A stretch of DNA of 20,000 nucleotides from IMG/VR virus record IMGVR_UViG_3300025769_000092; one strand, given 5' to 3'. A model generated the notes under the pieces. The model was given only the letters and a program-made list of their open reading frames with translations, did not search any database and was not told where the DNA came from. The DNA comes from an uncultured virus (IMG/VR IMGVR_UViG_3300025769_000092) (Duplodnaviria; Heunggongvirae; Uroviricota; Caudoviricetes). Below, one piece after another: positions 1-20,000 of this stretch (position 1 is its first letter; the number at the start of each line of letters is the position of its first letter). The position numbers were made by a program, and so were the translations under genes.

Positions 1-1
1 A

Positions 2-388
2 GAGGGCTTGGATGACGGTGGTATGACTGATAGAAGCCTAATGGAGAAGTTTATAGCCTTTTGTAACGATTACCTAGAGCTTAAGACTCCTTGTAAAATA
101 AAATTGACTAGTGATAGGGATTCTAATGGTATTAGAACAACAGCTTATTATAGTATATTAGATAAGATTATTTGTGTATATGTAAAAGATAGAGCAATAA
201 TGGATATAATGCGTTCTGTTGCACATGAGTTAGTACATCATCATCAAAACGAAAGAGGTGATTTACATGGTAGACCAGAAGAGGGGGCCGATGGGTCACC
301 GATAGAGAATGAGGCAAATGCTAAGGCTGGTGAAATTATCAGAATTTTCGGTAAACAAAACCCAGAAATTTATAGAAATAATAAATAG
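2..388 (+). CDS. C-terminal part of a zincin-like (HExxH) metallopeptidase-domain phage protein, probably truncated by the window edge
   Basis: The frame is open from base 2 (GAG GGC TTG...). It has the motif RSVAHELVHH followed by a downstream E (IENEANAKAG), the HExxH...E arrangement, and ends TAG TAG. Confidence 0.7.
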   Translation, partial: EGLDDGGMTDRSLMEKFIAFCNDYLELKTPCKIKLTSDRDSNGIRTTAYYSILDKIICVYVKDRAIMDIMRSVAHELVHHHQNERGDLHGRPEEGADGSPIENEANAKAGEIIRIFGKQNPEIYRNNK

Positions 389-399
389 TAGATAATTTA

Positions 400-429
400 T
401 TTGTCCCATGTCCCGAAACACGGGACAAA
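400..429. other. Intergenic GC-rich hairpin with two alternative left arms
   Basis: TGTCCCG (409-415) pairs with CGGGACA (421-427); TTTGTCCC (400-407) can alternatively pair with GGGACAAA (422-429). There is no clean U-tract. Confidence 0.45.
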
Positions 430-494
430 GTTTAATCATTAATTTAATAAAAAGTTTCAGAATTCAATGTTATTATTAAATTGGAGGATGAGAT

Positions 495-713
495 ATGTTA
501 CCAGAGGATATAAAAAAATTGGTGATTAAATATAAAAATGAAATCACAATTCTTAATAAAAATATAGTTGACTTACAAGAAAAATGTAGTCATGATAATT
601 ATGAAATAAAAAATATTAGCACTAGCACAGGTGTATTTAGAAATGTGTGTACAACATGTGAAAAAATTATTGGGTATCCAACTGATAAAGAATTTAGAGA
701 AGCTGGTTATTAA
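495..713 (+). CDS. Small hypothetical protein, putative zinc-binding (CxH...CxxC)
   Basis: 72-aa ORF with CSH and CTTC motifs; GGAGG at 483-487 upstream of the start. Confidence 0.65.
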   Translation: MLPEDIKKLVIKYKNEITILNKNIVDLQEKCSHDNYEIKNISTSTGVFRNVCTTCEKIIGYPTDKEFREAGY

Positions 714-1009
714 TTAGTTATTTTTAATCTTGGTGCTCTGAAACGATGTTCATCACCTATATAAATTATTTTACTAATAAAAAATGATGTATCTTTTAAT
801 CGTCTTTTAATGTTGCTATCATAATAGGAATGTATTTTTATACTATCTTCGTAGTTTAATTTTTTAGGTACTATAAAATTATTACAACCCCAATGATTAT
901 CATCTTCAGATGTTTTATAACAGTATGAATACCTCTCATCTCTAAAGATTTCTTTACCGCAACCCATTAAAATAATAATAATACATGTTATTAATAATAA
1001 TTTACTCAT
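710..1009 (-). CDS. Putative lipoprotein
   Basis: MSK, then a hydrophobic stretch, then the lipobox-like LMGC. The start codon is supplied by the junction repeat. Confidence 0.7.
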   Translation of the reverse strand: MSKLLLITCIIIILMGCGKEIFRDERYSYCYKTSEDDNHWGCNNFIVPKKLNYEDSIKIHSYYDSNIKRRLKDTSFFISKIIYIGDEHRFRAPRLKITN

Positions 1010-1024
1010 CTTTGTTTTTGTTTA
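1002..1024 (-). repeat. Gene-junction repeat copy 1 (TAAACAAAAACAAAGATGAGTAA, 22/23 to consensus)
   Basis: Contains the TAA of 1022..1267 and the ATG of 710..1009. Confidence 0.9.
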
Positions 1025-1267
1025 GTCTAAACCTAAATTATGGTCTCCTAATATGTCTCTTATTTTCTCTCTTAGTTTTTCAGCAACTTCATATTCTGCT
1101 TCACTTGCTTGCTCGTTGTGTTTCAACAACGATACATTATACTTTGTAGTTGACCGTAATAATTGGTCTAAGTCCCACATAGCAAGTTTCCACTTGTAAC
1201 CATCTAATGCTGTTCTAGCATCTTCTGCTTCTTCTACTCCATCAAATTCTAAAATAACTTTACTCAT
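1022..1267 (-). CDS. Hypothetical phage protein
   Basis: 81-aa ORF bounded by junction repeats on both sides. Confidence 0.8.
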   Translation of the reverse strand: MSKVILEFDGVEEAEDARTALDGYKWKLAMWDLDQLLRSTTKYNVSLLKHNEQASEAEYEVAEKLREKIRDILGDHNLGLD

Positions 1268-1282
1268 CTTTCATTTGGTTTA
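1260..1282 (-). repeat. Gene-junction repeat copy 2 (TAAACCAAATGAAAGATGAGTAA, 21/23)
   Basis: Contains the TAA of 1280..1501 and the ATG of 1022..1267. Confidence 0.85.
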
Positions 1283-1501
1283 ATAATAATCCTCTTCATC
1301 CCAATAAACTTCCTTACCTAATTCTTCGGCAACGGCTCGAGACACACTATTTATACTAGCACCTAAAAACTCTTTCCATTCAGTATTAGGATTGGCGATA
1401 CAACTATTACCACCACTTGTTAGTTTAATTCTATCTACATCCCATTTGACACCGAAGTAATCAAGAAATTCCTTACATCTATTTAATTCTTTTTCTGTCA
1501 T
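1280..1501 (-). CDS. Hypothetical phage protein
   Basis: 73-aa ORF in a co-oriented cluster. A TATATTTG (-7-like element) lies just upstream at 1506-1513. Confidence 0.75.
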   Translation of the reverse strand: MTEKELNRCKEFLDYFGVKWDVDRIKLTSGGNSCIANPNTEWKEFLGASINSVSRAVAEELGKEVYWDEEDYY

Positions 1502-1526
1502 ATTTCAAATATAATAAAAATTATTT

Positions 1527-1916
1527 TTAATCCCACCATCCTCTAATATAAAATTCAATTAATTTCCATAGAAGTTTATGGGCTCTTTCTTGTTTTTTCA
1601 TCGCTTCTTCAAACTCAATCTTTCCCTTATGCCAGTCATTCATGTATTCTTCATTGTATACTTTATCCATCAGTCTAACAACCATTCTAATCTTTTGGGC
1701 ATCAATATGTGAGTTAGCACCATAGGCTTCATGGGATTCCATAAAATCCGCTTGTTTCAATAACTGGTGTTTGAATACTTCTAATGAGTAATAGTAATCA
1801 AAATCAAATTGTTTCCATATTATAGGAATCCAACCAATAAGATTTTTAATCTGTCTCCATTTTCTACGAGGCCAGTAATTAATGTTTCTCCAAACGTCTT
1901 TTAATTTATTTTTCAT
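1527..1916 (-). CDS. Hypothetical Trp-rich phage protein (probable start MKNKLKD at 1916)
   Basis: The track ORF is 1527..1934. The ATG at 1914-1916 overlaps the end of the upstream gene (ATGAAAAATAA). The protein ends GWWD. Confidence 0.75.
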   Translation of the reverse strand: MKNKLKDVWRNINYWPRRKWRQIKNLIGWIPIIWKQFDFDYYYSLEVFKHQLLKQADFMESHEAYGANSHIDAQKIRMVVRLMDKVYNEEYMNDWHKGKIEFEEAMKKQERAHKLLWKLIEFYIRGWWD

Positions 1917-2157
1917 TTTGTTCCAAATAAGCACGTAATTTTTTTAAATCCTCTTTTTTAAATATTGTACTATCCCAATCACCAAATCTGCTTTTATAAC
2001 CAAAAGCATACTTTAACCCTCGCCATAGTCTTTTAAAAAAGTTTCTGTGAGTTGTCAAGTGTGGTTCGCAATATAAGTTACCATCTTCTTCATCATACCA
2101 AAAAATTACTTGGTGTTCAAGCGAGTGGCATTCGCATATCATTACTATTCTATCCAT
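1906..2157 (-). CDS. Hypothetical phage protein (CxCH motif)
   Basis: 83-aa ORF with an N-terminal ICECHSLEH motif. Confidence 0.75.
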   Translation of the reverse strand: MDRIVMICECHSLEHQVIFWYDEEDGNLYCEPHLTTHRNFFKRLWRGLKYAFGYKSRFGDWDSTIFKKEDLKKLRAYLEQNEK

Positions 2158-2201
2158 AATTCCGTAATTTTTAAAGTCGTTTTAATATTGGTCCATTTAA
2201 G

Positions 2202-2224
2202 TTACTCATCTTTGTTTTGGTTTA
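2202..2224 (-). repeat. Gene-junction repeat copy 3 (perfect consensus)
   Basis: The plus strand reads ttactcatctttgttttggttta. Confidence 0.95.
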
Positions 2225-2313
2225 TCGAAGAATATCCAATTAGCTTTTCCATTCCTCCCTATTTTGGAAATTTTACTAGATATTTCTTTTAGTTTATCTT
2301 TTAACTTACTCAT
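2206..2313 (-). CDS. 35-aa basic micro-protein MSKLKDKLKEISSKISKIGRNGKANWIFFDKPKQR
   Basis: Manually translated. It starts at the ATG of repeat copy 4 and stops at the TGA of repeat copy 3. Confidence 0.55.
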   Translation of the reverse strand: MSKLKDKLKEISSKISKIGRNGKANWIFFDKPKQR

Positions 2314-2328
2314 CTTTGTTTTGGTTTT
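2306..2328 (-). repeat. Gene-junction repeat copy 4 (AAAACCAAAACAAAGATGAGTAA, 22/23)
   Basis: The plus strand reads ttactcatctttgttttggtttt. Confidence 0.95.
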
Positions 2329-2420
2329 CCTCCCCATATTTTTATTGTCATATCTCTTGCGGGTGATGGCTTTAATCTATTCCACCTATCTATCCAATGT
2401 TGCCTTTCTTCTTTACTCAT
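2310..2420 (-). CDS. 36-aa micro-protein MSKEERQHWIDRWNRLKPSPARDMTIKIWGGKPKQR
   Basis: Manually translated. It starts at the ATG of repeat copy 5 and stops at the TGA of repeat copy 4. Confidence 0.6.
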   Translation of the reverse strand: MSKEERQHWIDRWNRLKPSPARDMTIKIWGGKPKQR

Positions 2421-2435
2421 CTTTGTTTTGGTTTA
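2413..2435 (-). repeat. Gene-junction repeat copy 5 (perfect consensus)
   Basis: Encodes the C-terminal NQNKDE* of 2413..2793 and the ATG of 2310..2420. Confidence 0.95.
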
Positions 2436-2793
2436 ATAAATTCATAAAATCTATATCTTTATCTAATATCTCAATAGGTACAGGACTCTTTTCTATAATA
2501 TTCTCTAATACATCTTGTACATATGGTCTAAACCAATACATACCATCTTTTAATCCATAACCGCTTTTACGACATTGATAACAACTACCACTATGGCCTT
2601 CAAAATAGTAATAATCTTCATCTTCTTCAATACCAACGACACCCGAATTCATTTTCCATCTGTCACCATCTAGATATCCACCTCTCCATCCACCGAATAC
2701 TCGGTAATAGGTTTCATTACCTTCAATTTTAAGGATAACCCAACTTTCTGGTTTTTCTGTTATATTTCTGATATCAAATATTTTATCTTCCAT
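2413..2793 (-). CDS. Conserved-looking hypothetical phage protein
   Basis: 126 aa with a WVILKI...YRVFGGWRGGYLDGDRWKMNSG motif of a type I recall from phage hypotheticals. It ends in the repeat-encoded NQNKDE. Confidence 0.8.
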   Translation of the reverse strand: MEDKIFDIRNITEKPESWVILKIEGNETYYRVFGGWRGGYLDGDRWKMNSGVVGIEEDEDYYYFEGHSGSCYQCRKSGYGLKDGMYWFRPYVQDVLENIIEKSPVPIEILDKDIDFMNLLNQNKDE

Positions 2794-2796
2794 AAC

Positions 2797-3000
2797 TTAT
2801 TTATAATTTGTAAGAAACTCTTTGGGTATGTCTTTACTTAATCCTTTCATAATATTCTCTTTGATATATTTAATGTCTTCCTCGTCTTTAATATCCTTAA
2901 TTATTTCTCTAAACTTAATTAAGAAATCAACATTCTCACTTTCACCATAGACATTAACTATTCTATCATGTAACCATTGTAAGTGTTCTGAATTTGTCAT
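2797..3000 (-). CDS. Hypothetical phage protein
   Basis: 67-aa ORF tightly packed in the cluster. Confidence 0.7.
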   Translation of the reverse strand: MTNSEHLQWLHDRIVNVYGESENVDFLIKFREIIKDIKDEEDIKYIKENIMKGLSKDIPKEFLTNYK

Positions 3001-3012
3001 ATTTTTTATATT

Positions 3013-3243
3013 TTAATATCCGTAATTCACTTTAATTGCCTTTGACTGATGTTTTCCTTCCTCACCAAAATGTTCCATCACCTCAATAGCAATATCTGTA
3101 TCCAATTGACATATTACTGCCGAAAAGTAACTTAACATAGATGATTTATCATCAGTTAATGTCATACCAAATTCAAACATAAATTCTTCTATCTCTGAAA
3201 TAATAGTATTTACTTTTCCTTGTCTTTCTCTATCTAATTTCAT
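3013..3243 (-). CDS. Hypothetical phage protein
   Basis: 76-aa ORF whose ATG lies in repeat copy 6. Confidence 0.75.
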   Translation of the reverse strand: MKLDRERQGKVNTIISEIEEFMFEFGMTLTDDKSSMLSYFSAVICQLDTDIAIEVMEHFGEEGKHQSKAIKVNYGY

Positions 3244-3258
3244 CTTTGTTTTGTTTGA
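3236..3258 (-). repeat. Gene-junction repeat copy 6 (TCAAACAAAACAAAGATGAAATT; 14-nt core intact)
   Basis: The core CAAAACAAAGATGA is identical; it lies between 3262..3534 and 3013..3243. Confidence 0.8.
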
Positions 3259-3261
3259 TAT

Positions 3262-3534
3262 TTAGTATTTTTTTAAATCTTTAAACGCCTCAATATCAAA
3301 AAACTCACTCTCTATTTTACCCATAACATCCTTTAAGAATCTACCTTGAGTTTCGTAATCCATATTGGTTATGGCAAATTTAATAGACATAGATAATGAT
3401 GAGGTTAATAAACCAACCAGTTCTAAATCAGACATTCTATTATCTTCTTGGAAGTATTTAAAGTTAAGGTATATCCTACCATCATCTTTAACATTACCTT
3501 CTAAAATGATTCTTTTTAATTCTTCTTTACTCAT
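3262..3534 (-). CDS. Hypothetical phage protein (start at 3534 MSKEE, or at 3543)
   Basis: The track ORF is 3262..3543. The second ATG lies in the half-motif AAGATGAGTAA (3527-3537). Confidence 0.7.
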   Translation of the reverse strand: MSKEELKRIILEGNVKDDGRIYLNFKYFQEDNRMSDLELVGLLTSSLSMSIKFAITNMDYETQGRFLKDVMGKIESEFFDIEAFKDLKKY

Positions 3535-3546
3535 CTTCTCCATTTC

Positions 3547-3684
3547 TTAGTTTGTAAAGTCTCGTTTAATTTGTTTTCTCTTTAGTTCACTTACACCCGA
3601 TGGCATGACAGTAGGCTTGTAATATTTTGTTCCGCATGAAGTCATTGCTATAAGGAAAAGCATCGATATTAATTTTTCACTCAT
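3547..3684 (-). CDS. 45-aa putative small lipoprotein MSEKLISMLFLIAMTSCGTKYYKPTVMPSGVSELKRKQIKRDFTN
   Basis: Manually translated. It fills the gap exactly, has a hydrophobic stretch plus lipobox-like MTSC, and takes its ATG from repeat copy 7. Confidence 0.65.
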   Translation of the reverse strand: MSEKLISMLFLIAMTSCGTKYYKPTVMPSGVSELKRKQIKRDFTN

Positions 3685-3699
3685 CTTTGTTTTGTTTTA
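3677..3699 (-). repeat. Gene-junction repeat copy 7 (TAAAACAAAACAAAGATGAGTGA, 21/23)
   Basis: Contains the TAA of 3697..4065 and the ATG of 3547..3684. Confidence 0.9.
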
Positions 3700-4065
3700 T
3701 ATCCATCCTTTTTTTCTAACCTGTTGTAAAAGATTAGTTAAGTTTATAAATTTAGAGTCACCTATTTCTTTTCTCAGATTTGTTACTTCAATATTTTCAT
3801 TATCTTCTAACACATCAATTAAGAAATCTTTATTATCCCAGTAATCACTATTGTTTTTATTGGCATGGCCTTCTGTATAGTAGGTTACATTTTGAGTACC
3901 TTCCCATATTTCATCATCATCATTTAGTAAAACACTAAACTCAAAATAACCACAATCACTAATAGAAGAGTAATAAAATGTTACTGAATTTTCATTTACT
4001 TTAGTCTCTTCTACTGGTACTAAATTGTACTCTACCCCATCTAATATTATTGTCTTATTATTCAT
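3697..4065 (-). CDS. Hypothetical acidic phage protein
   Basis: 122-aa ORF with N-terminal KTIILDGVEYNLVP. Confidence 0.8.
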   Translation of the reverse strand: MNNKTIILDGVEYNLVPVEETKVNENSVTFYYSSISDCGYFEFSVLLNDDDEIWEGTQNVTYYTEGHANKNNSDYWDNKDFLIDVLEDNENIEVTNLRKEIGDSKFINLTNLLQQVRKKGWI

Positions 4066-4091
4066 ATTTTTAATCTATTAATTCATCTATG

Positions 4092-4152
4092 TTTTATACC
4101 CCTTCGGGTATGTTTCAATTAATTTAACTCATTTTATACCTTAACGGGTATA
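4092..4152. repeat. Tandem pair of palindromic elements TTTTATACC-N5-GGGTAT, 40 bp apart
   Basis: ttttataccccttcgggtat (4092-4111) and ttttataccttaacgggtat (4132-4151), in an intergenic gap. Confidence 0.75.
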
Positions 4153-4189
4153 TGGGATAGAATTCTTATTAAATGCTGTTTGATAATTC

Positions 4190-4372
4190 TTATTTGTTGT
4201 ATTGTTTTAATTCTTTCTCCATATCTAACATGATAAATGATTGTTTTTTAATCATAGCCCTATACTTGAATATGTAAGAGGTTTGAAATGCTAACATGAT
4301 TGCAAACATTGCTATATAGGCATACCAAATCAAACTCTTTGGTGGGTCTAACCTTTTTAAATTAGTTTTCAT
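4190..4372 (-). CDS. Small single-TM membrane protein
   Basis: 60 aa with hydrophobic LIWYAYIAMFAIMLAF; ATG lies in repeat copy 8. Confidence 0.7.
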   Translation of the reverse strand: MKTNLKRLDPPKSLIWYAYIAMFAIMLAFQTSYIFKYRAMIKKQSFIMLDMEKELKQYNK

Positions 4373-4387
4373 CTTTGTTTTGTTTTA
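4365..4387 (-). repeat. Gene-junction repeat copy 8 (TAAAACAAAACAAAGATGAAAAC)
   Basis: Supplies the TGA of 4369..4494 and the ATG of 4190..4372. Confidence 0.85.
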
Positions 4388-4494
4388 TATATTGTCCACA
4401 TTTTCTTTTCACACTCTTGAGAACAAATTGTACCTTTTCCTTTGAATTTGGTCCCACACATATCACATATATTGTATTCTATTTTATTTTTCAT
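4369..4494 (-). CDS. 41-aa zinc-finger micro-protein MKNKIEYNICDMCGTKFKGKGTICSQECEKKMWTIYKTKQR
   Basis: Manually translated. It has CxxC-x10-CSxxC and ends in the repeat-encoded KTKQR*. Confidence 0.7.
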   Translation of the reverse strand: MKNKIEYNICDMCGTKFKGKGTICSQECEKKMWTIYKTKQR

Positions 4495-4499
4495 ATATT

Positions 4500-5738
4500 T
4501 TAAAAAGGTAAATCTTCAATCCAGTTTCCATTAATATCTCTACTATGACCAAGTTTTGTAGCTGGTTCAACATCTATACTTAAACCAATCTCTTTATTAA
4601 AGTTATTAACTTTTTCAATAACCATATTTAATAATGATTCTGGTGGGTTTGAGTTTGAGTGACCTCTTAATTGCCCCACCCTTAGAAATTTACTATGCTT
4701 ATTACTATTGGAAGAAATACTAAATGAAGATTCTGTGTTTAATTCTAGGGTGTAACCATTTACTCTAAAAATACCACAATTACCGTTTTCTACCTTGTTA
4801 ATATAAGTACCAACACAATGATTTTGTTTTTTACCCTCATAAGCCATTTCTTTAGTACTTTGTATGATTTCTATTTTAGAAAATCTTGAGAACTTTAAAT
4901 ATATGTCAGAAATTTTCATTTTTCTATCAGCACCAATAAATATAATATCGTTAATCACTTTAACAAAGTTATCGTGTTCTTGTCTTAATCTTTTTGATGA
5001 CCATGAACAATTAACTTTTTCATCAAGTATTTTTGCCATTTTAAGTGTATCCCTAAATATATTTAATTCACCTCTATCTGAGGTCCACTCTTTTTTTAAT
5101 GACTCAACATTTTTAATATATTTTAAATAGTATTTAAAGTAGTATTTAACCCAGTGGTCATTTGAAGTGTGTAATATTAAGGCCACTGGTTTTGGTACTT
5201 TATATTCAAACTGTAAAGCCTTTTTAAGATTATATAGTTTGTTTTTTATAATTGTATTAAACGCTATATTTTGTAAAACATTGTGTTCTCTAATAAACCT
5301 AATCCATGTAAATTTATTTTGTAGTTCATTTAATATAAGTTCAACCTGTATAGATTCTTTCAAACCTATTTGGTATTGTGGGAATGCACTAGATAAAAAG
5401 TTCATAGTTAGTGGTCTAACGTTTTTTGATTTACCCATGTTATCTATTATCCAGAATTTACCTTCTTTATAAGTTATAGTTAATAGTCTTTTTTCTGAAC
5501 TATAAATTCTATTTGTTATGCTTATACCATATTTTTTCCTAAAATAAACTATAGAGAACTCTCCATTTTTTTCTTTAAATAAAACTAACCTAAAGTTTTC
5601 ATAACCAACTGAGTCATTCATATAGACTACTCTAGCCAGGTATTTATCTTTATTATATAATTTAAATAAATGGTCAACTTTTGGAGAGGTTGCTTCATGT
5701 AACACATTATACTCTGTTTTATCATTCTTATTACTCAT
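4500..5738 (-). CDS. PcfJ-like domain protein
   Basis: 412 aa with the PcfJ-type signature EGKKQNHCVGTY...QLRGHSN near the C-terminus; ends EDLPF. Confidence 0.75.
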   Translation of the reverse strand: MSNKNDKTEYNVLHEATSPKVDHLFKLYNKDKYLARVVYMNDSVGYENFRLVLFKEKNGEFSIVYFRKKYGISITNRIYSSEKRLLTITYKEGKFWIIDNMGKSKNVRPLTMNFLSSAFPQYQIGLKESIQVELILNELQNKFTWIRFIREHNVLQNIAFNTIIKNKLYNLKKALQFEYKVPKPVALILHTSNDHWVKYYFKYYLKYIKNVESLKKEWTSDRGELNIFRDTLKMAKILDEKVNCSWSSKRLRQEHDNFVKVINDIIFIGADRKMKISDIYLKFSRFSKIEIIQSTKEMAYEGKKQNHCVGTYINKVENGNCGIFRVNGYTLELNTESSFSISSNSNKHSKFLRVGQLRGHSNSNPPESLLNMVIEKVNNFNKEIGLSIDVEPATKLGHSRDINGNWIEDLPF

Positions 5739-5765
5739 ATATTAAAATTTTTATTTGGTTGTGTA

Positions 5766-5797
5766 CAAATATAGAATAAAATTTGTAAAAAAACAAA
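5766..5797 (-). promoter_or_regulatory. Bacteroidota-type primary-sigma promoter for the accessory cluster
   Basis: The minus strand reads TTTG-N20-TATATTTG, matching the -33 TTTG / -7 TAnnTTTG consensus. Confidence 0.75.
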
Positions 5798-5810
5798 TTA
5801 TTTTTAATTT

Positions 5811-6062
5811 TTAATATATAGACCTTATCTCTATTAGACCTTTATCGTAATCTTCTTTCTTTTTTTTTAGGAAAGCTCTAGCGACAGTTCTAATATGTCC
5901 ATCCGTATAAGGTGGTGTTAATATACCGTCAGCTAGTCTAGCAATTTGGTTTATTGCACTAGTTCTACTTCTTTCCCTACCCTTTATATACTGGTATACT
6001 GCTGGATGGTCGTCTGGTATTGAAACTTTAATAAATTCTTTAATTATTTCTGAATCACTCAT
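5811..6062 (-). CDS. Hypothetical protein
   Basis: 83-aa ORF with normal composition. Confidence 0.7.
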   Translation of the reverse strand: MSDSEIIKEFIKVSIPDDHPAVYQYIKGRERSRTSAINQIARLADGILTPPYTDGHIRTVARAFLKKKKEDYDKGLIEIRSIY

Positions 6063-6135
6063 TGATTTTATTTAAAAAAAGTGTATATTGGTTATAATTA
6101 TAAATAATAGATAAAAAAGTAAAAATTAAAATCTT

Positions 6136-6456
6136 ATGAATTTAGAAATAACAGACAGCGAAATTGACAACCTTTTATCTAAAGGTGGTATAACAGTATT
6201 AGATTTTTGGGCACCATGGTGTGGGCCTTGTAAGAGTTATGGACCTATAATTGAAGGGTTCGCTAAAGATAATGAAAGTAGGTCTGATTTACACATCAGA
6301 AAAATTAATGTAGATGAGAATCCAGTAATGGCTCAGAAACATGGTATTAGAAGTATACCTACTACAATTATTTTTAAAGATGGGCAACTAATAACAAAAG
6401 TTCCTGGTGTGATACAAAAAAATAAATTAGATGAATTTGTGGGTAATTTATCTTAA
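6136..6456 (+). CDS. trxA: Thioredoxin
   Basis: DFWAPWCGPCK active site and SIPT cis-Pro loop; 106 aa. Confidence 0.95.
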   Translation: MNLEITDSEIDNLLSKGGITVLDFWAPWCGPCKSYGPIIEGFAKDNESRSDLHIRKINVDENPVMAQKHGIRSIPTTIIFKDGQLITKVPGVIQKNKLDEFVGNLS

Positions 6457-6485
6457 TTGAGGATATTTATAATAAAGAGTAAATT

Positions 6486-6806
6486 GTGGACATAAGAGAT
6501 AAAATAAGAAAAGCTCTCACAGAAGTATATGGTAATTTTGAGACTTACCTTGAGTCTGAGTATGAGAAATATATCTCTGATAATCTAACGAATGCTTCTA
6601 TGTCCAACAAGAGAAAGTGGATAACCTACAATCAAGTTATATTAGAATTGAAGCATAACATTAAAAATATGCTTAAGGTTAAAGAATTACAATACAAGCT
6701 TACTGAAGATGCGGAACCTAGAGAAGTGTGTATCGAGGTGATAGAAACTTTGGAAATTAAAACTCCAGAACTCGAAAGACTTTATTATAAAATAAGAAAT
6801 TTTTAA
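6486..6806 (+). CDS. Hypothetical protein, paralog of 6923..7258
   Basis: GTG start; motif WITYNQVILEL...ELQYKLTEDAEP. Confidence 0.75.
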   Translation: MDIRDKIRKALTEVYGNFETYLESEYEKYISDNLTNASMSNKRKWITYNQVILELKHNIKNMLKVKELQYKLTEDAEPREVCIEVIETLEIKTPELERLYYKIRNF

Positions 6807-6922
6807 AAAAAAATGGCCATACAAAACGTATGGTCATATCTCTGAAAAAAGTTAGTGTTAACCCAGTAGATTGGTTTGTTTTATGATATTTATTATAAAT
6901 AACAATTACTAAATTAATACTA

Positions 6923-7258
6923 ATGGATGACTTTGATTTCACTATAAAATCTGGGTCTGGTAAGTACTCAAATCTAGATAAGGAGTATGGTAATTTCCTT
7001 AAAACAATAACACAAAAATTAGACGGAGAAAAATTATATAGGTGGGAAAGCTACAACCTAATAATTGAAGAGTTAATTAAGGAAAATAAATTATCTACAT
7101 TTGAAGAGGTAAAATACAGATTGACAGATGGGGAAGACCCAAATAACGTAATGTTAGATATTATAACAAGAGAGAATAATTCGAATGGATTAATGTGGTT
7201 GATGAAAAAACGTATTGAAGAATATAAGAATGAAGATTTCTTTGACCAATTTTATTAA
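6923..7258 (+). CDS. Hypothetical protein, paralog of 6486..6806
   Basis: Motif WESYNLIIEEL...EVKYRLTDGEDP. Confidence 0.8.
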   Translation: MDDFDFTIKSGSGKYSNLDKEYGNFLKTITQKLDGEKLYRWESYNLIIEELIKENKLSTFEEVKYRLTDGEDPNNVMLDIITRENNSNGLMWLMKKRIEEYKNEDFFDQFY

Positions 7259-7296: not shown

Positions 7297-7327
7297 TTGA
7301 TTATTTTAAATATTTGTAGTATATTTG
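7297..7327 (+). promoter_or_regulatory. Bacteroidota-type promoter
   Basis: TTG (7297-7299)-N20-TATATTTG (7320-7327), just upstream of the ATG at 7340. Confidence 0.7.
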
Positions 7328-7339
7328 TAAAAAAGTTTT

Positions 7340-8764
7340 ATGAGTAAATTAGATAACACAAAAAGACTTGAGTACCTAGTAAAAAGGTACGATATTTTTG
7401 AGACTGATACTAAAAGTCTTGATGATAAGGTTAGTGAATTTACACGTAAAGGAAGTCTGGTAAAAGATATAATTGGTTCTAGTGGTAATATAATTGGGTT
7501 AGAGTCATTAATAGAGAATATTAAAGTTGATGGTGCTGGTAATAAGATAACTAAAATTAAAAAAACTATTAGTGTTTCTTTTGATGTTTTTAGTGAAATG
7601 GTTAAGTCTGACCCAACTAAGAATAAACAACACACTCAATGGATGTTAGACACATTTATTAGATTATTAAAAGATTCTAACTACTCAGATGCTGTTAGGT
7701 TCGTTGAAGAAGACCTACCATTGGCTAAAGAATATTTAGAAATATTTGAACAGAACAAAAAGAAAAGGAAATTTAAAGAATTATGTAATTCTTCATATGT
7801 TTTAAAAGGGACTGTAAATGACCCAACAAATATAAACCAATATAAATCACTATCTCAACTATATGATGCAGTTGACCCATTTATTGAAAGGGACTCTTCA
7901 GATATGGAAAAGCAAATGCAAAGGTTTGTAGATGCTGGTCAAGCGTTAATACCAGTTAGGGATAGAAAGTTTACAGTGTTTATTCCTTTAACTAGAGACG
8001 CTAGTGTTTTATTTGATAAATTTGCTAGTTGGTGTACTGCAACCCCTAATAACGGTATGTTTAATAATTACACTAGTAATTTAAAACCTAATGGTAAAAA
8101 ATCAAATATTTATATAGTGATAGACCACAGGTTTTACAAAGGTGATTTAGATGATAACTATTTATATCAAATTCATTTTGAAAGTGGGCAAGTTAGGAAT
8201 AGAAAACAAAATGGTAGGGGTAATTTCTTTGAGGATGTTATTTTAAAAAGTGATGGAGTCTCAAAATTCTTACATGAAGAATTAACTACCATGGCTAAAC
8301 AATTAAAAAAAATTGAGAATAATAAGTATATTGATTTCTTAGTTAGATTTGGTTGGACTGAGGCGCTATTTGATATAATGGATGATTATACACCAATAAT
8401 TAAATTTAAAGATAGAGAGGTACCAAAAATACCAGATATTTCTAAATTTAAGGAATTACATACATTGATAATTGCAAACGGTAAATTGCATGAATTACAT
8501 CCATCAATAGGTAAATTAAAAAATATTAGAGAGATTATTTTACCAAATAATAATCTAAAATCGTTACCAAAAGAAATTGGTAATCTTAATAATTTATTAT
8601 TTATAAACTTACTGGGAAATAAGATTAAAGATATTCCAGATGAAATTAAGTATTTAGATGAAACTAATGGTGGTTCATTATATAGAATAGCTTGTAATAG
8701 AAACGAAATAGGAGAAGAAAATTATAAAAAATTAAGAACACTACTGCCATCAGTTAAGATGTAA
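7340..8764 (+). CDS. Leucine-rich-repeat-containing protein (phage-type N-terminal domain plus C-terminal LRRs)
   Basis: C-terminal LxxLxLxxNxLxxLPxxIGxL repeats (e.g. IREIILPNNNLKSLPKEIGNL, LLFINLLGNKIKDIPDEI). The N-terminal part has DPTKNKQHTQW and SWCTA motifs. Confidence 0.8.
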   Translation: MSKLDNTKRLEYLVKRYDIFETDTKSLDDKVSEFTRKGSLVKDIIGSSGNIIGLESLIENIKVDGAGNKITKIKKTISVSFDVFSEMVKSDPTKNKQHTQWMLDTFIRLLKDSNYSDAVRFVEEDLPLAKEYLEIFEQNKKKRKFKELCNSSYVLKGTVNDPTNINQYKSLSQLYDAVDPFIERDSSDMEKQMQRFVDAGQALIPVRDRKFTVFIPLTRDASVLFDKFASWCTATPNNGMFNNYTSNLKPNGKKSNIYIVIDHRFYKGDLDDNYLYQIHFESGQVRNRKQNGRGNFFEDVILKSDGVSKFLHEELTTMAKQLKKIENNKYIDFLVRFGWTEALFDIMDDYTPIIKFKDREVPKIPDISKFKELHTLIIANGKLHELHPSIGKLKNIREIILPNNNLKSLPKEIGNLNNLLFINLLGNKIKDIPDEIKYLDETNGGSLYRIACNRNEIGEENYKKLRTLLPSVKM

Positions 8765-12553: not shown

Positions 12554-12571
12554 AGAAAATTTTTATTTGTA

Positions 12572-12636
12572 CAAATATATAACATTATTAATTAAAAATC
12601 AACACTTGATTTTATTATAAATATAAAGTATATTTG
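12572..12636. promoter_or_regulatory. Back-to-back divergent Bacteroidota-type promoters
   Basis: Minus strand: TTG (12602-12600)-N20-TATATTTG (12579-12572). Plus strand: TTG (12606-12608)-N20-TATATTTG (12629-12636). Confidence 0.75.
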
Positions 12637-12654
12637 TACAAAAATATTTTAATT

Positions 12655-14422: not shown

Positions 14423-14451
14423 AAAAAGCATCTTAAATGGGTGCTTTTTTT
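14423..14451 (+). terminator. Rho-independent terminator after thyA
   Basis: AAAAGCATC...GGTGCTTTT stem followed by a T-run. Confidence 0.7.
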
Positions 14452-14487
14452 GTTTATAGACATATTTATAATAAAACATTAATACTT

Positions 14488-14748
14488 ATGCCAGTTAATA
14501 GAAAGATATCTTCAGTAATTAGGAGTTGGGATAATGCAGATTTTAATGCACACATATATTCAATGGTATATGCTAGTGTAAACTCAACAGCCATTATAAA
14601 TGGTGAAGAAGTATTTTTAGTTGCAACTACGCAATTAGATTTTAATGTTAAAAGCATTAGTGCTAATACTAATAATGTATATGTTTTAGGTGATAATAAA
14701 AATGTTATTGATGGTTCAACGACATTAAGTAATTACCCTAATCCATAA
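14488..14748 (+). CDS. Small beta-rich hypothetical protein, tandem paralog A (start MPVNRK)
   Basis: The ATG at 14488 aligns with the start of paralog B. The track start at 14437 lies within the terminator. The protein ends TLSNYPNP. Confidence 0.8.
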   Translation: MPVNRKISSVIRSWDNADFNAHIYSMVYASVNSTAIINGEEVFLVATTQLDFNVKSISANTNNVYVLGDNKNVIDGSTTLSNYPNP

Positions 14749-14763
14749 TAAAAAATATTTAAT

Positions 14764-15018
14764 ATGCCAATAAAGAGTGGAATTTATTCAATAATTGATG
14801 CAGCAGCTGATGCTGACTTTACAAAAAATGCGTATAATCAAATTTACGCTGGAGCTGATACTACTGCGGTAATAAATGGAACTAGCGTTGTTATGATTGG
14901 TGGTTCGACTATTGAAGTTAGGGTTAAAAGTATAAGTGGTACGAATGTTTATGTCATTGGTGACCCAATAGATGTTGTAGATGGTTCACCAACATTAAGT
15001 AATTATCCTAACCCATAA
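14764..15018 (+). CDS. Small beta-rich hypothetical protein, tandem paralog B
   Basis: Shares ADF, TAxING, VKSIS, NVYVxGD and DGSxTLSNYPNP with paralog A. Confidence 0.85.
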   Translation: MPIKSGIYSIIDAAADADFTKNAYNQIYAGADTTAVINGTSVVMIGGSTIEVRVKSISGTNVYVIGDPIDVVDGSPTLSNYPNP

Positions 15019-15884: not shown

Positions 15885-17594
15885 ATGAGATTTGATGGTA
15901 AGAAACCAATCGAATTTTCCGATGAAACTGTTGAATTAGAACAGGATAATCTAGAAGAAGAAACTAAATACAAGTTGAAGCTGGACGCACCGAGCGAGCC
16001 AGCTTCTTCTGTTTCTAGTGATGAGGAGTCATTAGATGCTTTTGCTGATGCTGAAGGTGATGAAGAATTATCTTTTGATGATGAAAAAGAAGTTAAGGGT
16101 GGAAACGATAAACCATTTGATGACACACCATTCGATGCTGGTGTTGAAGCTGATGAAGATGAAGACCCAGAAAAATTCATACAACAACTTGCTGGTAAAT
16201 TAGGGACATCTCTTAGAAAATATAATGATGAGAGAGGTGAACCAGATTTTGATTTAGAGAAATACGCTATTAATAGTGTGATATCCGCTACTCACACAGC
16301 TGAAATGGATGAAGAGGACCAAAAGGATATTATTAAGAAAGTTAAGATGTCTGGTGCTGGTGATGATAATGATGACATTGATAAGGATTTAGATATGGAT
16401 TCTGAAGAACCAGCTGAAGACCCAAAACCAGAAGCTGAAGGTGATGAATTAGAAGAAGGTAGTAATTTAGACCCATATCACGGTTTTAGTGATAAAACTT
16501 TAAGGGGTGCTTTGATGCATAAGTTGAATATTTCTCCAATAGATTTAAAAGCAAAAGGAGATTTAGAAAAACTATCTAGGGACGAATTAGAAAAAAAATT
16601 AAACTCCTTAAAAGGTAATAAATTAGAAGAAGGTAGCCGTGAGGGTGAGTCTATGGCTAATAGTGAAATACCTCCTACTGATGATGATTATTCAATAGCA
16701 ACAGAGTTTAAGAAAGAATTAGAGAAAGAGAAAGAGGAAAAAGACAGCGAAAATTTAGTTGGAAAGGCTATGGCTAAATCTGAGATTAAAGAGCTTTTTG
16801 GTAAAAAAAAGATAGACACAAGTGATTTACCTCAAGATATTAAGGATGAGATTGAGAAGTTAAGAGCTGCTGGTAAGAGCGAGGAAGAGATTGAAGACGA
16901 AATATTACACCCACAAGCTAAGAAAGACGGTATTACGTTAAAAAAAAAAGGTTTTAAGTTAGTGGGTGAGGAAGAAGAAAAATTATATGAAGAATCTTGG
17001 GCAGACCCAATGGAATTAAAAGAGGGTGTTGAAGTTTCTGATAACTTAAAGCATCACTTAGATAATAAAATCGCATTAGGTGAAAACGTATTTAGATACG
17101 GTTCAGATAAGCATGTTGAATTATATACTGAAGTAAAAGACTTACATGAAAAGGGATTAATAACTATTAATGAAAACGATGAGATTTTACTTGAGGATTT
17201 TACTGACCAGTCAATCATTATTGAGGGTGAAACAATTCTTTTAAACCTTATTATTGAGGACAGTGGTGAATATATTCTTGAGGGTGATAAATATAAGGGT
17301 AAGAAAACCAATTCACCAACTAGGGGTGCTGGCGGTGGAAAGGCATATAAGGTATTTGTGCCTGGATGTGCTAAGGAAACTAAATCAAACCCAAGAGGTA
17401 TTAAAAAAGTAACATTTGGTTCTGGTGGACTTAAGGCTAAATTAACTAACAAAGATGCTAAGAAGTCATATAACGCTAGACACGGGTGTTCTAAGGGTAA
17501 ACATAACGATAAATGTAAAGCTGGATATTGGTCATGCAGATTACCTAGATATGCTAATAAACTAGGTTTATCTGGTGGTGGTACTTGGTGGTAA
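15885..17594 (+). CDS. Large modular protein (acidic N-terminal part, basic Cys/His C-terminal domain); possibly expressed by -1 frameshift from the upstream ORF
   Basis: 569 aa. The frame is open upstream through the A10 run. It ends in a KKVTFG...SYNARHGC...AGYWSCR module. Confidence 0.8.
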   Translation: MRFDGKKPIEFSDETVELEQDNLEEETKYKLKLDAPSEPASSVSSDEESLDAFADAEGDEELSFDDEKEVKGGNDKPFDDTPFDAGVEADEDEDPEKFIQQLAGKLGTSLRKYNDERGEPDFDLEKYAINSVISATHTAEMDEEDQKDIIKKVKMSGAGDDNDDIDKDLDMDSEEPAEDPKPEAEGDELEEGSNLDPYHGFSDKTLRGALMHKLNISPIDLKAKGDLEKLSRDELEKKLNSLKGNKLEEGSREGESMANSEIPPTDDDYSIATEFKKELEKEKEEKDSENLVGKAMAKSEIKELFGKKKIDTSDLPQDIKDEIEKLRAAGKSEEEIEDEILHPQAKKDGITLKKKGFKLVGEEEEKLYEESWADPMELKEGVEVSDNLKHHLDNKIALGENVFRYGSDKHVELYTEVKDLHEKGLITINENDEILLEDFTDQSIIIEGETILLNLIIEDSGEYILEGDKYKGKKTNSPTRGAGGGKAYKVFVPGCAKETKSNPRGIKKVTFGSGGLKAKLTNKDAKKSYNARHGCSKGKHNDKCKAGYWSCRLPRYANKLGLSGGGTWW

Positions 17595-17606
17595 AATATA
17601 ATTAAT

Positions 17607-18815
17607 ATGGATAGGTTACAAAATTATATGTTTTTTGAGAATCTAGAGCAAATCTCTAGAGATATTAATAAATTAATGTCGTTAGACAAAGAAAAGATTG
17701 ACGCTATTATAAGTAATGGGCATGATTGGGTTGGTGAGCATATAACAACCGCAAAGGATGATATCGAAGAAATCACTAACTTTTTATTAAGTAATGCTCA
17801 AGAAGATAAACCATATGGTGAAGAGATTGGTGAGAATGGTATTATTAGAAGGACTTTCTCTGAGAATGTTAATGAATCTGAACTAGAGTGGCATAGAGAT
17901 AAAGAAGATAGAATTGTTTTACCCATTAATGAAAATGATTGGTCAATTCAATTTGACAATGAATTACCTAAGAAGTTAAACGTAAACGAAGAGTTCTTTA
18001 TACCAAAAGAAACTTTCCATAGAGTTATTAAGGGTTCTACTGATTTAGTAGTTGAGGTCATTAAAACAACTTTTGAAGAAGATGAGTATGAATTATTTGA
18101 AGCATACGAAACTTACGAAGTTATAGAAGAGGGTAAAAAGAAGAAGAAAAAGAAGAAGAAAAAGAAGAAGAAGAAAACTAAAAAAGATGCTTGCTATTAT
18201 AAGGTTAAGGGTAGATATAAGGTTTGGCCTTCGGCATACGCTTCTGGAGCATTAACTACATGTAGAAACGTTGGTGCTGCTAACTGGGGTAATAGTACTG
18301 ATGAATCTGAATTAGATGAAGCTAAAAAGAGAAAACTAACAGCCAAGCCAAGTTCTGAAACAAATCTAGGTGATTGGTTTAAGAGAAAAGGCGCTAAAGG
18401 TAAAACAGGTGGATGGGTTGATTGTAATACTTGTAGAAAAGATTCTAAGACTGGTAGAAATAAATGTAAACCTTGTGGTAGAAAAGAAGGTGAGAAGAGA
18501 GCTAAGTACCCAGCATGTAGACCAACACCAGGAGCTTGTAAAGCAAAAGGTAAGGGTAAAAAGTGGGGTAAAAAGTCAAAGAAGAACGAAAACTTGCAAG
18601 AATCACATAAAAATACTATATTTGTAGAAAACATAGATATGAAAGACCTTATAGTACATAACTTACACGAAACGACTCAGCCAGAGGTGAAGCCAGATGT
18701 TAAACCTACAGTTGTTCCTCAAAAAAATCCTTCACCATTAAGAAGAAGATTGTGGGAAAGTAAACCAGCTAGTAAACCAAAGCCTAAAATGGGTAACAAC
18801 AATGATATTGAATAA
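17607..18815 (+). CDS. Modular protein: helical domain, cupin-like domain, poly-Lys, basic Cys-rich modules and Pro-rich tail
   Basis: WHRD...FIPKETFHRVIKG (cupin-like), a K14 tract, DACYYKVKGRYKVWPSAYASGA and WVDCNTC...PCGR...PACRP. Confidence 0.8.
   Translation: MDRLQNYMFFENLEQISRDINKLMSLDKEKIDAIISNGHDWVGEHITTAKDDIEEITNFLLSNAQEDKPYGEEIGENGIIRRTFSENVNESELEWHRDKEDRIVLPINENDWSIQFDNELPKKLNVNEEFFIPKETFHRVIKGSTDLVVEVIKTTFEEDEYELFEAYETYEVIEEGKKKKKKKKKKKKKKTKKDACYYKVKGRYKVWPSAYASGALTTCRNVGAANWGNSTDESELDEAKKRKLTAKPSSETNLGDWFKRKGAKGKTGGWVDCNTCRKDSKTGRNKCKPCGRKEGEKRAKYPACRPTPGACKAKGKGKKWGKKSKKNENLQESHKNTIFVENIDMKDLIVHNLHETTQPEVKPDVKPTVVPQKNPSPLRRRLWESKPASKPKPKMGNNNDIE
18135..18170 (+). repeat. 3 x 12-bp tandem repeat AAAAAGAAGAAG encoding poly-Lys
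   Basis: Exact triplication read from the sequence. Confidence 0.85.
18594..18624 (+). promoter_or_regulatory. Intragenic Bacteroidota-type promoter
   Basis: TTG (18594-18596)-N20-TATATTTG (18617-18624); in-frame ATG at 18639. Confidence 0.55.
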
Positions 18816-19237
18816 TGGAAGAATTATACTTAATATACGTTAATAAAATTGGTGAGGACTGGACTGGAAAACATCTTTATGAATTCTTGTTTTCAGATAC
18901 AACTGAAAATGTAGATGGTGATGATTGGGATGCTTATCCAGCATCTGGTAGACCATCACCACCAAGTGAGGGTTTTGTTAAAAGAGTTGGTAAACTAGTT
19001 AGTAATGAATTAAAATTAAAATTAGTTCAAAATAATAGTGAGTTTGCTGTTTGGGATGCTGTTGATGGTGTTGTAGCTTTAGCTTGGGAAGACATGGATG
19101 ATTATGATGAATATCCAGAAAATAGAATTGCAATTCACTTTGGTGAATCAATTAAGAGTGTTGAAGATAAATTATATGAACATGATTTAGTTTTAGATTA
19201 TAACAATATTAATGAAACTATTAAAAATGAGAATTAA
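18815..19237 (+). CDS. Hypothetical acidic protein
   Basis: 140 aa; TAATG stop/start overlap with the upstream gene. Confidence 0.85.
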   Translation: MEELYLIYVNKIGEDWTGKHLYEFLFSDTTENVDGDDWDAYPASGRPSPPSEGFVKRVGKLVSNELKLKLVQNNSEFAVWDAVDGVVALAWEDMDDYDEYPENRIAIHFGESIKSVEDKLYEHDLVLDYNNINETIKNEN

Positions 19238-19922
19238 AAAGAAACATATTAAAGAAAAGGTTGAAACTATAAAAAAAGACCTTGAATCTAAAGATATAGA
19301 AAAAGAAAAAGAATCACCTATAGATGCTAAAGCAGATAAGGTTGATACAGAATTAAGTGATAAATTAGACCAGGTTAAAAAACAACTTAGACCTAGTATA
19401 GAGGGTCTTGAAGATGAACTTGAATTAATGACTGGTAGCAAAGATACTGCTGAAAAGCTTACCCAAGATATGGTTGATGCCGCACTTAAATCAGAAGGTA
19501 AAAATAAGGAAAAAGAAAGTCCTATCCATAAAGAAAAGTGGGAACGTTGTGTTAAAGATGTAAAGAAAAAATCTCCAGATGTAAATCCTTATGCTGTTTG
19601 TACAGCTTCAATAGGGTACGAAGGTTCAATTAAAAAACCACATAGAAGAAAAGATGAAAATGAAGAAAGAATAGCTTCAGATGCAATAAAGTATGGTCAA
19701 ACTCAAGGCGAGGTCGGTGATGAATTTTATGATTTACTAAAAAGTTTACCAAATGACGATAAGCCAACACCAAAAGACAACAAAGATGAACCGCTAAATG
19801 ATTTACCATTCGAGTCTGTTAAACCTAAGATGACTAAAAATGAGTTAATAGAAAGTGTTGTTGGTAAAAAAACGAGAAAAGTAATAAAAACAATTAGTAT
19901 TAAAAATTTAAGAAATGAGTAA
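19227..19922 (+). CDS. Hypothetical charged modular protein (probable start MRIKKKH)
   Basis: The track ORF is 19212..19922. It contains a KWERCVKDVKK...NPYAVCTAS module and KEKESPI twice. Confidence 0.75.
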   Translation: MRIKKKHIKEKVETIKKDLESKDIEKEKESPIDAKADKVDTELSDKLDQVKKQLRPSIEGLEDELELMTGSKDTAEKLTQDMVDAALKSEGKNKEKESPIHKEKWERCVKDVKKKSPDVNPYAVCTASIGYEGSIKKPHRRKDENEERIASDAIKYGQTQGEVGDEFYDLLKSLPNDDKPTPKDNKDEPLNDLPFESVKPKMTKNELIESVVGKKTRKVIKTISIKNLRNE

Positions 19923-20000
19923 ATATAGAGAATTAGCAAAAAAAGCTTTAGAAGAAAATAGAGGTAAGTCTAAAGAAGTTGTAAATGAAAACTATCTTTA
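19915..20000 (+). CDS. N-terminus of the next gene (MSKYRELAKKALEENRGKSKEVVNENYL...), truncated by the window end
   Basis: ATGAGTAA overlaps the upstream stop; the frame is open to the window end. Confidence 0.65.
   Translation, partial: MSKYRELAKKALEENRGKSKEVVNENYL

What the first reader, a model, noticed from the sequence alone, without database searches (positions are those of the whole stretch)
2171..2420. Three consecutive micro-cassettes (36, 35 and 12 aa) between closely spaced repeats
Seen: repeat copies at 2413, 2306 and 2202 are separated by unique 84- and 81-nt inserts. Both inserts are stop-free from the ATG of one repeat to the TGA of the next: MSKEERQHWIDRWNRLKPSPARDMTIKIWGGKPKQR and MSKLKDKLKEISSKISKIGRNGKANWIFFDKPKQR. 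The third repeat starts MSNLNGPILKRL* (2171..2209). The repeat-insert-repeat layout resembles a CRISPR array but the inserts appear to code for peptides. All are missed by the ORF track. Inference: these are minimal peptide cassettes (possible host-takeover or anti-defence peptides) or captured or truncated gene fragments.
Basis: partly seen in the sequence, partly recalled or inferred. Interest (0 to 1): 0.7.

Follow-up and report, generated by a model that had tools for sequence, protein, structure and literature searches.

The report
Phage mini-genes joined by swap junctions
A large uncultured phage strings its tiny accessory genes together with one short DNA joint that stops the previous gene in any reading frame and starts the next, and the same small genes turn up behind such joints in many other phages, so the joint probably lets phages swap and even fuse small proteins.

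Summary
The repeat is a 22-nt stop/start junction (minus strand AAACCAAAACAAAG-ATGAGTAA). It heads 8 of 17 genes of a small-gene block in a jumbo-type phage, probably with a Bacteroidota host, and 0 of 14 starts outside it. It recurs in at least 133 IMG/VR stretches and is clustered on one strand in four related 210-380 kb phages. It usually carries stops in all three frames, and upstream genes use all three. The 36-aa ORF is a real mobile gene: 23 other loci with other neighbours, a 32-member family, a confidently predicted helical hairpin. The 35-aa ORF is real but known only from close variants. The 12-aa ORF has no homolog found and is probably a stump. Shared DNA between loci ends at junctions in 318 of 522 cases, and junction-like words inside genes mark in-frame chimeras. 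Best reading: integrase-free cassette shuffling by short-homology recombination, with translation re-initiation at each joint. Peptide function is untested. It works like PeSL or boundary-sequence shuffling and mycobacteriophage SASs, but is a new variant. The scan noted a similar dual-frame junction array on other DNA (e1-5696273).

The parts
2413..2434 (-). Junction copy 1: TAA just upstream in frame with the ATG, TGA in ATGA, TAA after it; ends the 126-aa gene and starts p36
2310..2420 (-). p36: 36-aa mobile mini-gene, member of an unannotated helical-hairpin family
2349..2366 (-). Junction-like word inside p36 (before Met24; degenerate in this copy) at which homologs switch to other C-terminal cassettes
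   Evidence: (P0079)
2306..2327 (-). Junction copy 2: ends p36, starts p35 (this copy lacks the upstream in-frame TAA)
2206..2313 (-). p35: 35-aa basic mobile mini-gene, close variants only
2202..2223 (-). Junction copy 3: ends p35, starts p12
2171..2209 (-). p12: 12-codon ORF, no homolog found; probably a stump whose stop lies where the next cassette's shared DNA begins
1906..2172 (-). 83-aa gene with its own leader; 94% identical DNA in a phage with otherwise unrelated neighbours; best cultured relatives in Flavobacterium phages
2413..2793 (-). 126-aa gene that ends in the third frame of junction 1
4365..4386 (-). Junction copy (1 mismatch) heading the 60-aa gene 4372-4190, which is joined directly to p35 in L139
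3677..3698 (-). Junction copy (1 mismatch) heading a 45-aa gene
3236..3257 (-). Junction copy (2 mismatches upstream of the ATG) heading a 76-aa gene
1260..1281 (-). Junction copy (2 mismatches) heading an 81-aa gene
1002..1023 (-). Junction copy (1 mismatch) heading a 99-aa gene
5764..5796 (-). Bacteroidota-type promoter-like site (TTG ... TATATTTG) upstream of the block
710..5738 (-). Co-oriented block of 17 mostly small unannotated genes (PcfJ-like gene first) that holds all junction copies

Best explanation
The three ORFs are part of a shuffled array of small accessory genes of a jumbo-type phage, probably with a Bacteroidota (flavobacterial) host. The repeat is a dual-purpose junction. 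As mRNA it is an unstructured A-rich start site with stops in all three frames around the ATG, so whatever lies upstream is terminated and the next gene is restarted (sequence shown; translation inferred). As DNA it is a shared homology of about 20 nt at which co-infecting phages, large and small, gain, lose, swap and sometimes fuse genes by general recombination, without an integrase (breakpoints shown; enzyme inferred). p36 and p35 are real genes moved this way; p12 is most likely a stump. Most likely peptide role (inferred, about 0.45): early products made from a host-type promoter that bind host proteins, for takeover or counter-defence; for p36 through a Trp-rich helical hairpin.
For: Junction heads 8 of 17 hand-picked starts in the block and 0 of 14 outside. 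9-17 exact copies, one strand, clustered, in 4 related 210-380 kb records; reversed control 0. Stops in all three frames in 97 of 134 non-seed copies; upstream genes use frames 0/+1/+2 in 33/32/61 of 126. p36 in 23 other loci, none with a neighbour like the window's genes; 16 distinct upstream contexts among 23, identity 0.27-0.34 upstream of -15 against 0.71-0.91 inside. p35 joined by the junction to the homolog of a gene 1.9 kb away in the window; L010 joins two other window genes directly. 318 of 522 ends of shared stretches at junction starts (about 4% expected); homology runs through 18 of 336 junction starts against 35 of 118 other starts. Chimeras break at a junction-like word inside p36. 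p36 family of 32 plus pLDDT 93.7 hairpin; p35 7 synonymous to 2 non-synonymous changes against L139. A at -3, -6, -12, -13 and TANNTTTG sites fit Bacteroidota. No integrase, RT, Cas1 or Rad52 hit in the complete relative G002; a weak RecA-like hit in 3 of 5 records.
Against: No reads could be laid, so neither expression nor excision in a population is shown. The breakpoint count uses loci picked for the junction, many with short flanks; alignments tend to extend into a shared junction; pairs are not independent. Nine of 17 genes in the block lack the junction, and the junction-less 83-aa gene also moves between phages. Only 11 of 23 p36 copies have a strict junction word at their own ATG. p36 pN/pS is 0.47 outside the search pattern and p35 against L140 is 0.42, not significant. 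RecA hits are below the Pfam cut-off; G006 has an integrase-family hit. The host is inferred, not linked. No evidence for peptide function.
Confidence: 0.7

Rival explanations
1. The junction is only a translation signal (an SAS-like start site or protein-binding site) selected in front of early small genes; breakpoints pile up there because only exchanges at gene boundaries survive.
For: It matches the Flavobacterium start determinants A-3, A-6, A-12, A-13, is unstructured, one-directional and confined to non-structural genes like SASs. Other gene starts also collect breakpoints (78 of 522 ends).
Against: Homology stops at junction starts far more often than at other starts (318 of 336 against 83 of 118). 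Chimeras break at a junction-like word inside a coding sequence. None of 14 core-type starts uses it. The conserved C and G positions are not among the published determinants.
Confidence: 0.15
2. A dedicated sequence-specific enzyme (recombinase, nuclease or RNA-templated step) acts at the junction, as in an integron, capturing DNA and making peptide libraries.
For: Near-invariant 17-22-nt word across many contigs, tight one-strand clusters, very short orphan inserts (12 of 223 downstream ORFs under 20 aa).
Against: No tyrosine integrase, RT or Cas1 in complete G002; no palindrome or fold; lineage variants of the word intermix around one cassette, which suits homology better than a strict site. 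Serine recombinases and unknown families were not searched.
Confidence: 0.11
3. A CRISPR-like or non-coding repeat-spacer array whose inserts are open by chance in AT-rich DNA.
For: Local spacings of 107 and 104 nt with exact repeats; p12 has no homolog.
Against: Spacings in relatives run from 114 to 7161 nt, median 394 (39 gaps); downstream ORFs have a median of 60 aa; no Cas1, no Rfam match; p36 family conserved as protein.
Confidence: 0.04

Closest known systems
PeSL cassettes of T4-type phages RB49/phi1 (Arbiol et al. 2010, PMC2839356; abstract and Discussion read)
   Same: Repeated elements in plastic regions of large phages at which small non-essential ORFs are inserted, deleted or replaced by recombination, with no integrase identified.
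   Different: PeSLs are promoter plus stem-loop terminator units that isolate transcription. This junction is a 22-nt unstructured word overlapping stop and start codons inside one operon-like block, with stops in three frames; no mini-circles shown here.
Boundary or linker sequences of phage modular evolution (as summarised in PMC3029335, passages read; Botstein and Campbell as summarised in PMC2839356)
   Same: Short conserved sequences at gene boundaries proposed as homologous-recombination points.
   Different: Here one word is repeated many times per genome, doubles as the start site, is shared between 200-380 kb and small phages, and also yields in-frame chimeras.
Start-associated sequences (SAS) of Cluster K mycobacteriophages (PMC3203893, passages read)
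   Same: Asymmetric, one-orientation repeat at ATG starts of non-structural genes, sometimes holding the upstream stop; proposed role in initiation.
   Different: SAS is a 13-bp SD-containing word 3-7 bp before the start; this one has no SD, spans the ATG and has three-frame stops; the passages read propose no shuffling role for SAS.
Integron cassette arrays (recalled)
   Same: Co-oriented single-gene units separated by a repeat, with changing order and content.
   Different: No attC-like palindrome and no IntI-type integrase found in the complete relative.
CRISPR arrays (recalled)
   Same: Repeat-insert-repeat look over 250 nt.
   Different: Inserts are genes of very variable length; no Cas1; repeat does not fold.

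Membership tests
CRISPR array | Spacers of near-constant short length | tested here: not met
   85 and 82 nt here; 114-7161 nt between copies in relatives
CRISPR array | cas genes or a known repeat family | tested here: not met
   No Cas1 in 5 of 5 related records, only 1 of them complete; no Rfam match in window 1-7000. Other cas families not searched; own genome not held.
Integron | attC-like imperfect palindrome between cassettes | tested here: not met
   Three junction copies fold at 0 to -0.3 kcal/mol, z about +0.5 to +0.7
Integron | IntI-type tyrosine recombinase | tested here: inconclusive
   PF00589 absent from G002-G005, present once in G006; not examined further; own genome not held
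PeSL cassettes | Promoter plus stem-loop terminator in each repeat | tested here: not met
   No fold; TATATTTG promoter-like sites lie apart from the junctions
PeSL cassettes | Gene gains, losses and replacements bounded by the repeat | tested here: met
PeSL cassettes | Circular intermediates | not testable with these tools
   No reads available for this window
Boundary/linker-sequence shuffling | Short conserved sequence at mosaic junctions | tested here: met
   318 of 522 ends of shared stretches at junction starts; identity step at about -15 for p36
Boundary/linker-sequence shuffling | Exchange by general homologous recombination | not testable with these tools
   Only weak RecA-like hits in 3 of 5 records
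Start-associated sequences (SAS) | Asymmetric one-orientation repeat at ATG starts of non-structural genes | tested here: met
Start-associated sequences (SAS) | 13-bp consensus containing a Shine-Dalgarno core | tested here: not met
   Junction has no SD-like word; 2 of 31 starts in the window do
Known phage anti-defence or host-takeover peptides | Sequence or fold match to a described family | tested here: inconclusive
   No PHROG or Pfam family for p36 or p35; p36 model gives no significant fold match, best Z 3.5

The most novel reading that the evidence does not exclude
The three-frame-stop start junction is a shared adaptor standard of aquatic Bacteroidota phages of very different sizes, acted on by a still unknown sequence-directed capture step. 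Any DNA dropped between two joints is translated as a bounded peptide without disturbing its neighbours, so the arrays act as a gene nursery that tests orphan peptides (p12), spreads useful ones (p35, p36) and builds chimeric proteins from half-cassettes.
Probability: 0.2. Interest if true: 0.85.

Novelty: new variant of a known kind. Interest (0 to 1): 0.6.

Why it matters
It gives a concrete, countable rule for how uncultured aquatic phages exchange their many tiny unannotated genes, and makes the old boundary-sequence idea testable with one defined word. The word can be used to call sub-50-aa genes that annotation drops, to infer cassette pools shared between jumbo and small phages, and to pick mobile peptides such as p36 for anti-defence or host-takeover screens in laboratory Flavobacterium. 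The frame-independent stop/start design also offers a route to new and chimeric genes.

Tried and rejected
No whole genome is held; the nearest record G001 covers only window 17375-20000 and has no junction. The block has no blastn match among 50,697 cultured or deposited phages; p36 and p35 have no significant tblastn match there; the junction gave 52 chance-level records, each with one place. Flavobacterium phage tooticki6-1 shares the 83-aa gene but shows no such junction at 31 starts inspected. The 642-kb phage LR756502.1, a good ClpC match, has 0 copies of a pattern covering the main variants. One scan of 185,579 species genomes gave 4 hits, all on MAG contigs of archaea or Campylobacteraceae, probably misbinned phage DNA, not checked. 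Pattern searches gave chance hits that were dropped: 3 of 5 and 13 of 15. Eight of 15 listed members of p35's cluster are unrelated proteins; P0093 among the 33 profile hits is an unrelated repeat protein. ESM Atlas gave nothing for p36 or p35. PDB sequence hits of the p36 profile (LIS1 WD40 repeats) cover 11 residues with no passing stretch and were rejected; fold searches found only generic helical pairs. The ThyA homolog search did not name a host. A p12 origin by frameshift from the 83-aa gene was rejected: the four close homologs start at the same Met. p36 is absent from G002-G006. One search used a mistyped pattern and is superseded. No complex was predicted because no partner is proposed.

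Full report
1. Observation. The window is AT-rich (22-36% GC) and encodes ClpC-like, ThyA, thioredoxin, KTSC, RNase H-like and PcfJ-like proteins among unannotated genes; no genome is held for it. Three exact copies of a 22-mer (minus strand AAACCAAAACAAAG-ATGAGTAA) lie at 2413-2434, 2306-2327 and 2202-2223. Inserts are 85 and 82 nt. The 13-mer core occurs 7 times with at most one mismatch against 0.09 expected. Of 31 gene starts that I picked by hand from the ORF lists, 8 of 17 in the minus-strand block 710-5738 have the 14-nt upstream word with at most 2 mismatches; 0 of 14 outside do.

2. The repeat is a widespread stop/start junction. These hold 242 distinct copies by a looser pattern, 238 with ATGA; the ORF that starts there has a median of 60 aa, and 12 of 223 complete ones are under 20 aa. 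With a base T at -15 the word has a stop in each frame: TAA at -15, TGA at +1, TAA at +5. In a second count of 271 copies, TAA at -15 (not part of the search) is present in 106 of 137 seed and 123 of 134 non-seed copies; all three frames are stopped in 112 of 137 and 97 of 134 (two of the three stops are fixed by the pattern in seeds). The longest upstream frame is 0, +1 or +2 in 27/26/63 of 116 seed and 33/32/61 of 126 non-seed cases. So the word is conserved as nucleic acid, not as peptide; the KPKQR and NQNKDE ends are its by-products. It does not fold and no Rfam family matches window 1-7000.

3. Phage and host. Four long records picked because they carry the word (G002-G005, 210-380 kb) share ThyA, and three of them ClpC, with the window at 66-71% nucleotide identity. 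They hold 13, 9, 17 and 9 copies of the 17-nt core, all on one strand per record and nearly all in one or two blocks of 0.8-5.4 kb; the reversed control gives 0. Their blocks share few gene families, in different order; 76 junction-led ORFs have a median of 64 aa. TATATTTGYA occurs 5 times in the window against 0.52 expected (pattern chosen after seeing it), four times just before a gene start, one of them heading the block. This fits the Bacteroidota TANNTTTG promoter, and the junction has A at -3, -6, -12 and -13, the positive determinants in F. johnsoniae (PMC6847099, passages). Only 2 of 31 starts have an SD-like word. The 83-aa neighbour's cultured relatives are Flavobacterium phages in 46 of 57 records. 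A Bacteroidota host is thus inferred, not shown.

4. p36 is a real, mobile gene. The exact protein is on 11 contigs. Pattern scans gave 2 true loci of 5 in IMG/VR and 21 of 21 in metagenomes; L143 and L149 look like the same contig. None has a neighbour like any of 17 window ORFs. Among 22 loci plus the window there are 16 distinct upstream contexts; mean identity is 0.27-0.34 upstream of -15, 0.53-0.59 from -15 to -1 and 0.71-0.91 inside. Eleven of 23 have a strict junction word, often the variant ending AAAGAGAG, at their own ATG; the rest are degenerate or fused in frame to an upstream part. No frameshift or stop interrupts the shared part, though the pattern fixed 10 codons. pN/pS over 9 distinct cores is 0.24, but 0.47 outside the pattern, which is weak. 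Stronger: a profile finds 33 representatives of 50% clusters at E up to 0.001, 32 of them one family of about 29 residues with conserved Trp9, Trp13, Leu16, Pro-Ser-Pro, Lys27 and Trp29. AlphaFold2 gives a two-helix hairpin (3-14, 20-28), pLDDT 93.7. No PHROG, Pfam, Atlas or fold match names it.

5. p35 is real but narrowly sampled. The exact protein is on 22 contigs; 7 of 15 listed cluster members are 35-aa variants; 11 homologs are 85-100% identical, one fused through the junction to another start and one ending in the third frame. In L139 it follows, through the junction, the homolog of the window gene at 4372-4190, which in the window lies 1.9 kb and 7 genes away; in L140 it has other neighbours again. 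Against L139 there are 7 synonymous and 2 non-synonymous changes (5 and 2 outside the pattern and junction; p 0.003, transition bias not modelled); against L140 5 and 9, not significant.

6. p12 has no homolog in IMG/VR by pattern or in 246 held loci. Its stop lies where 94% identity to L134 begins (2172), that is, at the leader of the next gene. I read it as a stump (about 0.65); ultra-short ORFs after the junction are a regular by-product.

7. Breakpoints. Among 174 junction-bearing sequences, 306 distinct shared stretches of at least 82% identity and 90 nt have 522 scorable ends: 318 at junction starts (about 4% expected), 78 at other starts (7%), 126 elsewhere. Homology runs through 18 of 336 junction starts but 35 of 118 other starts. 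Loci were chosen for the word, pairs are not independent and alignments extend into a shared word, so this is support, not proof. L010 has three window genes in the same order with other genes between, two of them joined directly by the junction. More specific: in L148, L153, L154 and L161 the first 23 codons of p36 are fused in frame, at an internal junction-like word, to a protein that stands free behind a junction in L197, L199, L200 and L202 (30 of 51 loci inspected, none with the p36 half). P0079 breaks at the same residue with a third tail. A break inside a gene is not explained by selection for intact genes. In L143 p36 sits in frame inside a 1123-aa modular protein.

8. Mechanism. Shown: the junction's anatomy, its restriction to small-gene blocks, the mobility of p36 and p35, breakpoints at the word. 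Inferred: termination and re-initiation at each joint; crossing over within about 20 nt of shared sequence by general recombination. The complete record G002 has no hit for tyrosine integrase, RT, Cas1 or Rad52 and one sub-threshold RecA-like hit. Inferred with less support: early host-binding roles for the peptides, from position behind a host-type promoter and from the conserved Trp surface of p36.

9. Known systems and novelty. It works like PeSL shuffling (PMC2839356, abstract and Discussion) and boundary-sequence mosaicism (PMC3029335, passages), and sits like mycobacteriophage SASs (PMC3203893, passages), but fails their defining sequence features. Nine searches of the held library listed no description of this word or of a three-frame junction array; one search showed 15 of 33 papers, none on phages. 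PMC13573597 (Flavobacterium jumbophages) has no occurrence of 'repeat' or 'cassette' in its main text; PMC7468147 passages describe flexible genes but no such word. Subscription papers and supplements were not seen and could hold a description. An earlier unchecked note of this scan (e1-5696273) reports a dual-frame junction array in an aquatic phage on other DNA; sequence look-ups found no overlap, so I cannot say whether it is the same word. The PeSL comparison and the shuffling wording were also offered by those notes.

10. Verdict. Real; a new variant of a known kind (linker-mediated modular shuffling), with a new small-protein family. Interest 0.6.

Noticed in passing
L143:1454-4825: A 1123-aa jumbo-phage protein built of modules separated by a repeated in-frame linker (ESVNE, 5-6 copies conserved as DNA); p36 sits inside one module. 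Window genes 15885-17594 and 17607-18815 carry similar-looking modules. Possibly a second, in-frame cassette system.
   Followed up: partly
L145, L146, L151, L153, L162, L197-L202: Variant junction words ending AAAGAGAG or AAAGAGAA before the ATG (protein ends NTKER, KPKRD) in small phages and metagenome contigs; one cassette can have one variant at each end (L158).
   Followed up: partly
window 1903-2172: 83-aa gene 94% identical in DNA to L134, a phage with unrelated neighbours; PHROG 12660 calls its family virion structural; it carries a different leader ending AATT before the ATG.
   Followed up: partly
window 14437-15018: Two tandem paralogous genes (103 and 84 aa) with a 78-nt 79% identical 3' end (repeat D6).
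   Followed up: no
window 5764-5796, 7297-7329, 12570-12602, 12606-12638, 18594-18626: Five Bacteroidota-type promoter-like sites, two of them divergent around 12600.
   Followed up: partly
window 7340-8764: 474-aa protein with a C-terminal leucine-rich repeat region, unusual for a phage (PHROG 6688).
   Followed up: no
window 4086-4140: Short imperfect repeats with inverted symmetry (TATACC ... GGGTATA) in the gap between the 60-aa and 122-aa genes.
   Followed up: no
L182-L185: The junction occurs on four contigs binned into archaeal and Campylobacteraceae MAGs, probably misbinned phage DNA.
   Followed up: no
G002 85000-96000 and 371000-380343: The two junction blocks of one genome share three gene families (F7, F8, F9), suggesting exchange or duplication between blocks.
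   Followed up: no
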